Below are positions 29,002 to 64,000 of a stretch of DNA of 64,000 nt, one piece after another; position 1 is the stretch's first letter; every line of letters begins with the position of its first letter. Under the pieces are notes generated by a model, which ran no database searches, was not told where the DNA came from, and saw only the letters and a list, made by a program, of their open reading frames with translations. Made by a program: the position numbers and the translations under genes. The stretch is taken from positions 83,175-147,174 of the forward strand of contig JAEOTC010000086.1 of the NCBI GenBank assembly GCA_016840035.1. Direction: 5' to 3'. Source of the stretch: Candidatus Hodarchaeota archaeon. GTDB lineage: Archaea; Asgardarchaeota; Heimdallarchaeia; Hodarchaeales; Hodarchaeaceae.

Positions 29002-29109
29002 GGATCCGTGGCTTAGCCAGGATAAAGCTTTTATACATGTAGAGCTTCTAGAAAGAGCGGCGGCCTTCTAAGTCGCAGGTCGGGGGTTCAAATCCCCTCG
29101 GATCCGCCA
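29002..29109 (+). tRNA. tRNA-Arg(TCT) with 30-nt D-loop intron (29024-29053); CCA encoded
   Basis: GGATCCG/CGGATCC acceptor; GCGGC-CTTCTAA-GTCGC anticodon arm; hairpin insert before A21. Confidence 0.9.
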
Positions 29110-29312: not shown

Positions 29313-29415
29313 GAGCCCTTCGCTTAGCATGGATAGAGTGCTTGCCTCCGGAGCAAGGATTATCTATTTCATGATCCTCCGTAAGAGGTCGTGAGTTCAA
29401 ATCTCACAGGGCCCG
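29313..29415 (+). tRNA. tRNA-Arg(CCG) with ~28-nt intron in the 3' strand of the anticodon stem (about 29356-29383)
   Basis: CTTGC-CTCCGGA-GCA[intron]AG; T arm GTGAG-TTCAAAT-CTCAC; acceptor has an A2:C71 mismatch. Confidence 0.82.
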
Positions 29416-63647: not shown

Positions 63648-63773
63648 TTGGTTATATCCATCAAGTTTTCTGTGATGAAATTCAATTTAGTATTAATTCA
63701 ATCGGAGTAAAGAAACCTGTCTATCATAAAATTAAATTTCTTTCCAAAATTAGTCTCGAGAGGATAAAAGCTA

Positions 63774-63784
63774 AATATATAAAG
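63774..63784 (+). promoter_or_regulatory. Candidate TATA box for the 5S precursor
   Basis: AATATATAAAG preceded by purine-rich sequence, about 95 nt upstream of the 5S sequence. Confidence 0.4.
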
Positions 63785-63877
63785 ATTCTTGAAAATGCCC
63801 CAACTGGTTTGTAATCTCACAAACACAAATCTTGTGCTGAAATATGCGCTGAAATAACCTGTGAGATATTGCCGAAA

Positions 63878-63997
63878 GTTAAGTCAGGCTCCGTTCTGAT
63901 CTGTACTGTTGTGCTCGCGCCTACGGGAAAATCAGAAAGCTGAAGGTTCTTCGGCCAAAGGGCCTGAGTCACACCCGGTCTCATTCCGAACCCGGAA
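63878..63997 (+). rRNA. rrf: 5S rRNA gene, circularly permuted (3' half 63878-63945, GTT linker, 5' half 63949-63997)
   Basis: GTTAAG-TCAGGCTC..TTCTGAT/ATCAGAA..GCTGAAG precedes CTTCGGC-CAAA-GGGCCTGA..ACACCCGGTCTCATTCCGAACCCGGAA. Helices I, II, III and V pair cleanly; total length 120 nt. Confidence 0.88.
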
Positions 63998-64000
63998 ACA

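What the first reader, a model, noticed from the sequence alone, without database searches (positions are those of the whole stretch)
63860..64000. Circularly permuted 5S rRNA gene with a BHB-type junction predicted to yield a 120-nt circular 5S
Seen: the 3' half (63878-63945) precedes the 5' half (63949-63997). Helix I strands GCTGAAG and CTTCGGC are joined by a GTT loop. Helix II (GGGCCTGA/TCAGGCTC), helix V (TTCTGAT/ATCAGAA) and loop C are intact, and no 5' half lies upstream. The new ends TG-CCGA-AA|G and CCGG-AA|A-CA form a relaxed BHB with one C-A mismatch. Cutting after the second bulge base and ligating gives canonical CCGGAA-GTTAAG (an alternative register adds one A). Known: the tRNA splicing endonuclease and ligase restore permuted tRNAs and the permuted SRP RNA of Thermoproteus, and permuted 5S occurs in some algal mitochondria. 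I know of no described archaeal permuted 5S gene. Inference: ribosomes here carry a covalently closed or re-opened 5S, and standard rRNA finders would call the gene partial. The window ends 3 nt past the junction, so the trailer cannot be seen.
Basis: partly seen in the sequence, partly recalled or inferred. Interest (0 to 1): 0.95.

Follow-up and report, generated by a model that had tools for sequence, protein, structure and literature searches.

The report
Circularly permuted Asgard 5S rRNA gene
This Asgard archaeon (Hodarchaeota-type) encodes its 5S ribosomal RNA back to front (3' part, tiny hairpin cap, 5' part) inside a splicing-type stem that should cut it out and join it into a 120-nt ring; most Asgard lineages share this layout, which explains why their 5S genes have been reported as undetectable.

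Summary
The window ends at a contig end. The adjoining contig continues CCGGAA|A-CAGUAUC, which pairs with the leader GAUAUUG, and no second 3' half follows. Window 63878-63997 is a 120-nt unit that folds as a canonical 5S when closed into a circle. It is the only 5S-like gene in this genome.

The permuted order is present in 79 of 83 genomes of the class and in most other Asgard families sampled, including closed chromosomes. The 5S helices covary (22 of 38 pairs change on both sides), and so does the leader/trailer stem. The break sits at the helix III AA bulge inside a bulge-helix-bulge (BHB) motif. Cutting after the second bulge base and ligating restores ...GGAA-GUUAAG... in every lineage. 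EndA (two paralogs) and RtcB are encoded.

I found no published description. Published closed Heimdallarchaeum genomes, reported as lacking a detectable 5S, carry two permuted units each. This scan has flagged the same feature before in many other Asgard genomes.

No RNA reads could be examined. Cutting and joining are therefore inferred, and whether the ring itself sits in the ribosome stays open.

The parts
63763..63784 (+). Archaeal-type promoter: purine-rich BRE-like stretch plus TATA-like box (TAAATATATAAAG, 63772-63784)
   Evidence: A TATA-like box is conserved at the same distance (about 95 nt upstream of the unit) in 11 aligned loci of the genus. The transcription start near 63806 is inferred from the usual 25-nt spacing and was not shown.
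63807..63819 (+). Distal leader strand GUUUGUAAUCUCA, pairing with the trailer UGAGAUUCAAAC (C112 = L002:153-164)
   Evidence: Read from the sequence. Part of it (CUCA/UGAG) appears in the minimum-free-energy fold of the precursor.
63846..63850 (+). Leader strand GCGCU, pairing with the trailer AGCGC (L002:146-150)
   Evidence: Present in the minimum-free-energy fold of the precursor. The GCGC motif recurs in leaders and trailers of the genus.
63863..63871 (+). Outer helix of the BHB, leader strand GAGAUAUUG. It pairs with the trailer CAGUAUC(CC), which starts at 63999 and continues on L002:126-134.
   Evidence: Alignment A1: 9 pairs, 5 of them with changes on both sides, 91% of cells paired, 0 of 500 shuffles as good.
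63872..63875 (+). Central 4-bp helix of the BHB, leader strand CCGA. It pairs with CCGG at 63992-63995, with an A-C mismatch at the fourth pair.
   Evidence: pair 24-148 is C-G in 13 species, U-A in one and U-G in one. In G021 the leader, the helix III 5' strand and the 3' strand changed together.
63876..63878 (+). Bulge 1 (A A | G). The predicted cut lies after 63877, so the RNA begins at G63878.
   Evidence: Inferred from the rule that the archaeal splicing endonuclease cuts after the second bulge base (established knowledge). G63878 can also pair with C63991, which would leave a 2-nt bulge.
63878..63945 (+). 3' part of 5S rRNA: base of helix III (GU), loop B, helix II 3' strand, helices V and IV with loops E and D, helix I 3' strand
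   Evidence: RF00001 model positions 48-120, 23 bits; circular fold; covariation.
63946..63948 (+). GUU cap that joins the ends a normal 5S would have (closes helix I)
   Evidence: The cap varies in sequence and length within the genus (GUU, UUU, AUU, ACUU, AAUUA). It is mostly a YNCG tetraloop in other families.
63949..63997 (+). 5' part of 5S rRNA: helix I 5' strand, loop A, helix II 5' strand, helix III and loop C, ending in the AA bulge
   Evidence: RF00001 model positions 1-54, 27 bits; circular fold; covariation.
63992..63995 (+). CCGG: 3' strand of helix III in the mature RNA, and partner of the leader CCGA in the precursor BHB
63996..63998 (+). Bulge 2 (A A | A). The predicted cut lies after 63997, so the RNA ends at A63997.
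   Evidence: Inferred from the same cleavage rule. Ligating 63997 to 63878 gives CCGGAA-GUUAAG, the sequence seen in normal-order Asgard 5S genes.
63999..64000 (+). First two bases (CA) of the trailer strand. The rest (GUAUC..., distal helices, oligo-T tracts at L002:167-171 and 177-183) lies on contig C112.

Best explanation
This is the organism's functional, single-copy 5S rRNA gene, encoded in circularly permuted order.

Proposed pathway:
1. It is transcribed from its own promoter as a precursor of roughly 250 nt.
2. The roughly 70-nt leader and the trailer pair into a long processing stem. The innermost part of that stem is a bulge-helix-bulge (BHB) motif built on the conserved AA bulge of helix III.
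3. The tRNA-splicing endonuclease (EndA, two paralogs here) cuts after the second base of each bulge (AA|G and AA|A).
4. RtcB joins the new ends. This gives a covalently closed 120-nt RNA that reads ...CCGGAA-GUUAAG... across the joint, as in ordinary 5S rRNA. A GUU loop caps helix I.

Basis of each step:
- Shown here: the gene order, the fold, conservation and covariation of both the 5S helices and the processing stem, absence of any other 5S gene, and presence of the enzymes.
- Inferred: cleavage, ligation, and (least certain) that the ring is not re-opened and is the form built into the ribosome.

My odds: real functional permuted gene 0.97; cut at the BHB and ligated 0.8; ring is the mature ribosomal form 0.5-0.55.
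For: (1) Order and continuity. Truncated Rfam halves lie in swapped order. The trailer on C112 holds no second 3' half. The contig join is collinear with relatives.

(2) Fold. The circular minimum-free-energy fold of 63878-63997 gives the 5S three-way junction with helices I-V.

(3) Covariation in permuted order. Within the genus, 98.4% of cells are paired and 7 pairs change on both sides. Across three families, 96.3% are paired and 22 of 38 pairs change on both sides. No shuffle out of 500 does as well, and slid registers fall to 27-50% paired.

(4) Processing stem. The BHB model is 92% paired, with 6 pairs changed on both sides and 0 of 500 shuffles as good. The own leader/trailer duplex is -25.7 kcal/mol against -14.9 +/- 3.7 for shuffled trailers. 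Across 26 lineage representatives, cognate leader/trailer duplexes average -18.6 against -9.3 kcal/mol for non-cognate ones, and the cognate trailer is the best partner for 14 of 26 leaders. The two tandem units in G023 have flanking helices of quite different sequence.

(5) Two BHB registers occur (CCGG-AA|G / CCGG-AA|A and CGUG-AA|A / CACG-GA|A). Both restore the same ...GGAAGUUAAG..., which is the sequence in normal-order Asgard 5S genes.

(6) Distribution. Full-length hits to the permuted model occur in 79 of 83 genomes of the class. Many other Asgard families have them too, while RF00001 finds nothing there. Families with a normal 5S (f11 26 of 26, f17 17 of 19) give only about 30-bit noise. 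Closed chromosomes are included.

(7) No other 5S gene. None in this genome. The 'normal' hits in the class are bacterial contaminants.

(8) Enzymes. Two EndA paralogs, each with N- and C-terminal domains, and one RtcB.

(9) Independent sign that EndA acts on these precursors. G001 and G017 of the same genus carry a 30-nt insertion with a BHB (UCCG-AA|A ... CGGG-AA|C). Its removal gives exactly CAUUCCGAA+CCCGGAA (BHB read by eye).

(10) Caps. Helix I caps are mostly stable YNCG tetraloops or extended hairpins, with no conserved processing signal.

(11) Precedent. The permuted SRP RNA of Thermoproteus is cut by the splicing endonuclease and functions as a circle (PMC4731332).
Against: In this species the BHB is relaxed. 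The central helix has an A-C mismatch, and bulge 1 may be only 2 nt if G63878 pairs with C63991.

The thermodynamic fold of the whole precursor pairs the leader CCG with the 5' strand of helix III instead of the 3' strand. CCGG is a palindrome, so the BHB conformer is not singled out by energy alone.

A circular 5S rRNA has never been observed. [quoted passage not shown]

A later check recorded in this scan priced the 'ring is the ribosome's 5S' reading of a sister finding at 35 in 100.
Confidence: 0.7

Rival explanations
1. Linear permuted 5S. The precursor is trimmed (by EndA without ligation, or by other nucleases acting on the leader/trailer stem) and the ribosome carries a linear 5S. Its ends lie at the helix III bulge and helix I is capped, as in the permuted linear 5S of brown-alga mitochondria.
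For: Permuted 5S that stays permuted in the final RNA exists in brown-alga mitochondria (PMC4267664). Leader/trailer helices are also ordinary rRNA processing stems. No junction reads were available. The BHB is relaxed in this species.
Against: The break sits inside a conserved protein-binding helix rather than at a junction. The bulge and 4-bp geometry is conserved, and it is canonical in many lineages. Two different registers give the same ligated sequence, which only matters if the ends are joined. In archaea, RNAs released by EndA are as a rule ligated by RtcB (established knowledge; PMC4731332, PMC12918454). RtcB is present.
Confidence: 0.15
2. Circular intermediate, then re-opening. The ring is made as described but is opened again, at the helix I cap or elsewhere, to give a linear 5S with conventional or new ends. 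This is what happens with permuted tRNAs and with the Pyrococcus 23S rRNA.
For: Permuted tRNA genes mature through a circle that is then opened at the native ends (Soma et al. 2007, as cited in PMC4267664). The P. furiosus 23S rRNA is circularised and then re-opened by excision of H98 (PMC7758197).
Against: The cap is only 3-5 nt in this genus and is a stable YNCG tetraloop in most other families. It has no conserved sequence and no flanking structure that could guide a nuclease. No second BHB surrounds the cap. The Thermoproteus SRP RNA and, by a recent report, 23S rRNA in several archaea stay circular.
Confidence: 0.12
3. Not a functional gene: a misassembly at a contig end, a pseudogene fragment, or part of a tandem array of normal genes.
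For: The unit lies exactly at a contig end with a 127-nt overlap to another contig. Several other assemblies also break here.
Against: The same order is found inside long contigs and closed chromosomes. The join is collinear with relatives. Compensatory changes appear in all helices. There is no other 5S gene. Upstream lies a promoter, not a 5' half.
Confidence: 0.02

Closest known systems
Circularly permuted SRP RNA gene of Thermoproteus tenax (Plagens et al. 2015, eLife; PMC4731332)
   Same: An essential structured RNA of an archaeon is encoded with its 3' part before its 5' part. The new ends lie in a motif cut by the tRNA-splicing endonuclease. Ligation gives a circular RNA that is the functional form. 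The gene had been 'missing' from annotation.
   Different: The RNA is different (5S rRNA, a ribosome component). The break is in the helix III AA bulge. The trait is spread over most of a phylum rather than a few species of one genus. RNA-level proof exists for the SRP RNA and is absent here.
Circularly permuted tRNA genes (Cyanidioschyzon merolae, Soma et al. 2007; cited in PMC4267664)
   Same: 3' half, short linker joining the native ends, 5' half. A BHB-like motif is formed by leader and trailer, and there is a circular intermediate.
   Different: tRNA circles are re-opened at the native ends by RNase P and tRNase Z. The 5S cap is a 3-5 nt loop or a tetraloop with no known processing signal.
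BHB-dependent circularisation of archaeal 16S/23S pre-rRNA, including circular 23S in ribosomes (PMC12918454) and the permuted 23S of Pyrococcus furiosus (PMC7758197)
   Same: A leader/trailer processing stem with a BHB, EndA cleavage, RtcB ligation and circular rRNA species.
   Different: Those genes are collinear, and the circle joins the natural ends. Here the gene itself is permuted, so ligation is needed to restore an internal helix. The literature found states that 5S is not processed this way.
Permuted mitochondrial 5S rRNA of brown algae (Valach et al. 2014; PMC4267664)
   Same: A 5S rRNA whose helix I is a closed hairpin and whose ends lie elsewhere. It is missed by standard models.
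   Different: It is organellar. The ends lie at the junction of the alpha and gamma domains. The final RNA is linear and stays permuted. There is no BHB and no ligation.

Membership tests
5S rRNA (Rfam RF00001) | Three-way junction with helices I-V, supported by compensatory base changes | tested here: met
   The circular fold gives the canonical shape. 96.3% of cells are paired and 22 of 38 pairs change on both sides.
5S rRNA (Rfam RF00001) | Conserved loop C, loop A and loop E sequence blocks | tested here: met
   Both halves align to the model with high posterior probability: CUCAUUCCGAAC, GUUAAG, GUACUG...GGGAA.
5S rRNA (Rfam RF00001) | Collinear match to the family model above the gathering score (38 bits) | tested here: not met
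   Only two truncated halves, 27 and 23 bits, in swapped order. The whole-genome search finds nothing. This fails because of the permutation, not for lack of homology.
5S rRNA (Rfam RF00001) | Present as the cell's 5S gene (no alternative copy) | tested here: met
   No other hit to RF00001 or to the permuted model R1 in the 87%-complete genome. The same holds in closed genomes of the class.
Substrates of the archaeal tRNA-splicing endonuclease (BHB motif) | Two 3-nt bulges on opposite strands separated by a 4-bp helix | tested here: inconclusive
   In this species there are 3 Watson-Crick pairs plus an A-C mismatch, bulge 2 is AAA, and bulge 1 is AA(G). Eight of the 15 aligned species of the genus have 4 standard pairs. 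Families f8, f10, f12, f13, f19, f23 and f25 have a canonical motif with CGUG/CACG and two 3-nt bulges.
Substrates of the archaeal tRNA-splicing endonuclease (BHB motif) | Flanking helices that hold the motif | tested here: met
   Outer helix of 7-9 bp here and 9-13 bp elsewhere, covarying. The inner helix GUU/AAC is invariant.
Substrates of the archaeal tRNA-splicing endonuclease (BHB motif) | Endonuclease and RtcB ligase encoded by the organism | tested here: met
   Two EndA paralogs (PF01974 plus PF02778; 97 and 63 bits) and RtcB (554 bits).
Substrates of the archaeal tRNA-splicing endonuclease (BHB motif) | Cleavage at the predicted bonds | not testable with these tools
   Needs an enzyme assay or RNA end mapping.
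Permuted RNA genes expressed through a circular RNA | 3' part upstream of 5' part, with the native ends joined by a short linker | tested here: met
Permuted RNA genes expressed through a circular RNA | RNA reads across the ligation joint; resistance to exonuclease | not testable with these tools

The most novel reading that the evidence does not exclude
The mature 5S rRNA in the ribosomes of most Asgard archaea is a covalently closed 120-nt ring with no free ends. This includes the Hodarchaeota-type lineage of this window and the Heimdall, Odin, Hel, Hermod, Njord, Baldr and Atabey groups. The ring is made by the tRNA-splicing machinery from a permuted gene. The trait would be old within the phylum that includes the closest known relatives of eukaryotes, and it would make ribosome assembly there depend on EndA and RtcB.
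Probability: 0.45. Interest if true: 0.92.

Novelty: new variant of a known kind. Interest (0 to 1): 0.86.

Why it matters
5S rRNA is a universal ribosome component, and its gene is regarded as easy to find in archaea. In a whole phylum it is instead encoded back to front and escapes the standard model.

This explains the published failure to find 5S genes in closed Heimdallarchaeum genomes (PMC8813620). It also bears on genome-quality standards that ask for a 5S gene.

If the ring is the working form, it would be the first circular 5S rRNA. Ribosome biogenesis in the archaea closest to eukaryotes would then depend on the tRNA-splicing endonuclease and ligase, which is relevant to how the roles of that machinery widened.

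The permuted covariance model built here (R1) gives an immediate annotation fix.

Tried and rejected
(1) Tandem or intron-split normal gene. Rejected: C112 shows no 3' half after the 5' half, and upstream there is a promoter.

(2) Misassembly. Rejected by collinearity with relatives and by closed genomes.

(3) A normal 5S elsewhere. There is none in the genome. The 79.9- and 79.8-bit hits in G023 and G006 lie next to bacterial 23S and are contamination. The 31-bit 'full-length' RF00001 hits in G028 and G038 are the model forcing its 5' half onto a leader hairpin upstream of a real permuted unit.

(4) Scoring the rearranged sequence with RF00001. I used the circular fold, covariation counts and a purpose-built permuted model instead.

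(6) Energy folding of the whole precursor. It gives the leader/trailer stem but pairs the leader CCG with the other CCGG of helix III, so it cannot decide the BHB conformer.

(7) Occurrence outside Asgard. An order-specific pattern over 185,579 species gave 72 loci. The four non-Asgard ones are ordinary or tandem haloarchaeal 5S genes and one chance match in Blautia. The pattern has limited sensitivity, so this is 'not found', not 'absent'.

(8) The 24-nt duplex test failed for several lineages (f3, f5, f6, f18 and part of f14). In at least f3b (L033) and f18 the outer helix lies further out or is interrupted by inserts.

Full report
**What is in the sequence**

Window 63878-63945 is the 3' two-thirds of a 5S rRNA (GUUAAG, helix II 3' strand, helices V/IV, helix I 3' strand). 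Bases 63946-63948 are a GUU loop. Bases 63949-63997 are the 5' third (helix I 5' strand, loop A, helix II 5' strand, helix III and loop C).

Rfam sees only two truncated pieces in swapped order. Model positions 1-54 score 27 bits at the window end. Positions 48-120 score 23 bits. Both are under the 38-bit gathering score, and a whole-genome search with RF00001 returns nothing.

**What lies after base 64000**

The window is G000:C28:83175-147174 and ends at the contig end. Contig C112 begins with the same 127 bases (window 63874-64000), a typical k-mer overlap. C112 continues ...CCGGAA-ACAGUAUCCCCUGGUG..., then AAAUAAGCGCUUUGAGAUUCAAAC, then oligo-T tracts. No second 3' half follows.

CAGUAUC is that, with one G-U pair. 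The joined C28+C112 sequence aligns as a single collinear match of about 3 kb to uninterrupted contigs of two related species. The arrangement is therefore not an assembly artefact.

**It folds as a 5S**

Closed into a circle, 63878-63997 (120 nt) has a minimum-free-energy structure with the canonical three-way junction and helices I-V. So do the homologous units of most of the 17 relatives folded, which measure 120-122 nt, or 149 nt with an insert.

On an alignment of 15 species of the genus, the 5S structure in permuted order is 98.4% paired, with 7 pairs changed on both sides. Across three families it is 96.3% paired, with 22 of 38 pairs changed on both sides. No shuffle out of 500 reaches this, and registers slid by 1-3 columns drop to 27-50% paired.

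**The processing stem**

Leader GAGAUAUUG (63863-71) pairs with trailer CAGUAUC(CC). Leader CCGA (63872-75) pairs with CCGG (63992-95). The AAG and AAA stretches are left as bulges on opposite strands, 4 bp apart. That is the BHB geometry.

On the genus alignment this model is 92% paired. Six pairs change on both sides, five of them in the 9-bp outer helix, and 0 of 500 shuffles do as well. In G021 the leader (C to U), the helix III 5' strand (C to U) and the 3' strand (G to A) changed together. This keeps both the precursor pairing and the mature helix.

Further out, GCGCU pairs with AGCGC and GUUUGUAAUCUCA pairs with UGAGAUUCAAAC, which extends the stem almost from the inferred transcription start to the terminator. 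The own leader/trailer duplex is -25.7 kcal/mol against -14.9 +/- 3.7 for shuffled trailers.

A TATA-like box (63772-63784) is conserved about 95 nt upstream of the unit in the genus, and oligo-T tracts follow 45-65 nt downstream.

**The joint**

The break lies at the AA bulge of helix III. Cutting after the second bulge base on each strand is the known rule for the archaeal splicing endonuclease (from established knowledge). Ligation then gives CCGGAA-GUUAAG. Normal-order 5S genes of other Asgard families read CCUGGAAGUUAAGC and CCCGGAAGUUAAGC at this spot.

**Distribution**

A BLAST search with the unit finds it full length in 19 of 21 other species of the genus, including single-contig genomes.

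I built a covariance model of the permuted form (R1). It finds full-length matches in 79 of 83 genomes of the class, in all seven families.

In an even sample of 151 genomes of the phylum there is a clean split:
- Strong full-length R1 matches (43-150 bits) occur in the class and in families f8-f10, f12-f14, f18, f19 and f21-f26, and RF00001 finds nothing there.
- Families f11 (26 of 26), f17 (17 of 19), f20, f15, f27 and f28 have a normal 5S (45-85 bits) and give only about 30-bit noise with R1.

Twenty out-of-genus loci were fetched, and all are full-length permuted units. Each has its own complementary leader and trailer, 9-13 bp of unrelated sequence.

Cognate leader/trailer duplexes average -18.6 kcal/mol against -9.3 for non-cognate pairs. 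The cognate trailer is the best of 26 for 14 leaders.

Two BHB registers occur:
- outer-CCGG-AA|G with CCGG-AA|A-outer, as in this window;
- outer-CGUG-AA|A with CACG-GA|A-outer, a canonical BHB.

Both yield the same ligated ...GGAAGUUAAG.... That only makes sense if the ends are joined.

**Which organisms**

An order-specific pattern run over one genome for each of 185,579 species hit 72 loci. By record title these are Heimdall-, Hod-, Odin-, Hel-, Hermod-, Njord-, Baldr- and Atabeyarchaeia, 'Asgardarchaeum', and unnamed Asgard MAGs.

Matching contig lengths place the window's genus among 'Candidatus Hodarchaeota' (G020 = YT2_065, G004 = YT2_004). The same matching identifies G028 and G038 as the closed Ca. 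Heimdallarchaeum aukensis and endolithica chromosomes. [quoted passage not shown] Each carries two permuted units scoring about 126 bits.

The four non-Asgard pattern hits are ordinary or tandem haloarchaeal 5S genes and one chance match.

**Machinery**

The genome encodes two EndA paralogs (182 and 210 aa), each with N- and C-terminal endonuclease domains, and one RtcB. Two different subunits suggest a heteromeric enzyme, the kind known to accept relaxed BHB motifs. That is an inference.

Two species of the genus (G001, G017) have a 30-nt insertion in the 5' part. It forms a BHB (UCCG-AA|A ... CGGG-AA|C, with an 8-bp inner helix), and its removal gives exactly CAUUCCGAA+CCCGGAA. A similar insertion sits at the same position in a distant family (G109). 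So the endonuclease very probably acts on these precursors.

**Ring or not**

Outside this genus the helix I cap is mostly a UUCG, UACG, CUCG or UGCG tetraloop, or an extended hairpin. Within the genus it is a 3-5 nt loop of variable sequence. I see no second processing motif around it. This argues against re-opening at the old ends.

The Thermoproteus SRP RNA stays circular (PMC4731332), and circular 23S rRNA has been reported in archaeal ribosomes (PMC12918454).

Against this, no RNA data could be examined and no circular 5S has ever been reported. I give about even odds that the ring is the final ribosomal form, and about 0.8 that the RNA is cut and joined.

**Literature**

Full-text searches found no description of a permuted archaeal 5S gene. 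The terms covered permuted 5S with archaea, 5S with BHB, circular and permuted, 5S with Asgard, 'circular 5S', and 5S with Prometheoarchaeum.

The nearest published cases are:
- the permuted SRP RNA of Thermoproteus;
- permuted tRNA genes;
- BHB-dependent circular 16S/23S rRNA;
- the linear permuted mitochondrial 5S of brown algae.

This scan has flagged the same feature before in many other Asgard genomes and on the adjoining contig of this genome. My tests agree with those notes.

**Origin (inference)**

In family f3 the leaders contain a hairpin that looks like a decayed helix III/loop C, for example CUGGAUGUGUUCCAG...GGGAAAGUUAAG. G023 has two tandem permuted units. Both fit an origin by tandem duplication with loss of the outer halves, as proposed for permuted tRNA genes. 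This was not tested further.

Noticed in passing
L020:1503-1651 (G001) and L021 (G017), same genus; L068 (G109, family f14): A 30-nt insertion in the 5' part of the permuted 5S, between CAUUCCGAA and CCCGGAA. It forms a BHB (UCCG-AA|A ... CGGG-AA|C), and splicing would restore the canonical loop C/helix III sequence. A similar insertion sits at the same position in a distant family. These genes would need two splicing events.
   Followed up: partly
L035 (G023:C510), reverse strand, units at about 142-256 and 299-413 of the reverse complement: Two permuted 5S units in tandem, 42 nt apart. Their leader/trailer helices differ completely and their helix II sequences differ. RF00001 reads across them as a 158-nt 'normal' 5S with an insertion (31 bits).
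   Followed up: partly
L033, L034, L024, L025 (family f3, including the closed Heimdallarchaeum genomes): The leaders contain a hairpin resembling a decayed helix III/loop C just upstream of (G)GGAAAGUUAAG. This may be a relic of an upstream 5' half left by a tandem duplication. In L033 and L034 the outer helix (UAAUGGCA/UGCCAUUA) lies about 40 nt further out.
   Followed up: no
L056 (G093 = CP147779.1, Atabeyarchaeia): The strand that pairs with the trailer (GUGGCAACA-CGUG-AGA) lies about 38 nt upstream of a second CGUGAGA-GUUAAG copy. Either the ring carries an extra 38 nt or a further processing step exists.
   Followed up: no
L149:87-238 (G194, family f11, normal-order 5S): A normal-order Asgard 5S gene with an insertion of about 32 nt right after GUUAA (hairpin GGAGUCA...UGACUUC), a few bases from the site where the other lineages are permuted. 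It scores only 32 bits with RF00001.
   Followed up: no
window 63874-64000 = L002:1-127; also G004, G009, G017, G018, G020: Contigs of several assemblies break at or inside this unit, and here there is an exact 127-nt overlap. A likely cause is that co-occurring strains share the conserved unit but differ in its flanks.
   Followed up: partly
L031 (G023:C798), L032 (G006:C310): Short contigs in two Asgard MAGs carry the 3' end of a bacterial 23S rRNA plus a bacterial-type 5S (about 80 bits). This is bacterial contamination that could be mistaken for the archaeon's 5S.
   Followed up: yes
window 29043-29098 and 29313-29415: ARAGORN finds no tRNA in the whole window. Rfam finds one 103-nt tRNA match (long enough to hold an intron) and one partial match.
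   Followed up: no
G067 (family f7): contigs C90, C132, C77, C106: Four identical permuted units lie at contig ends, and one 38.4-bit RF00001 hit overlaps a unit. This suggests a multi-copy or tandem array in this genome.
   Followed up: no
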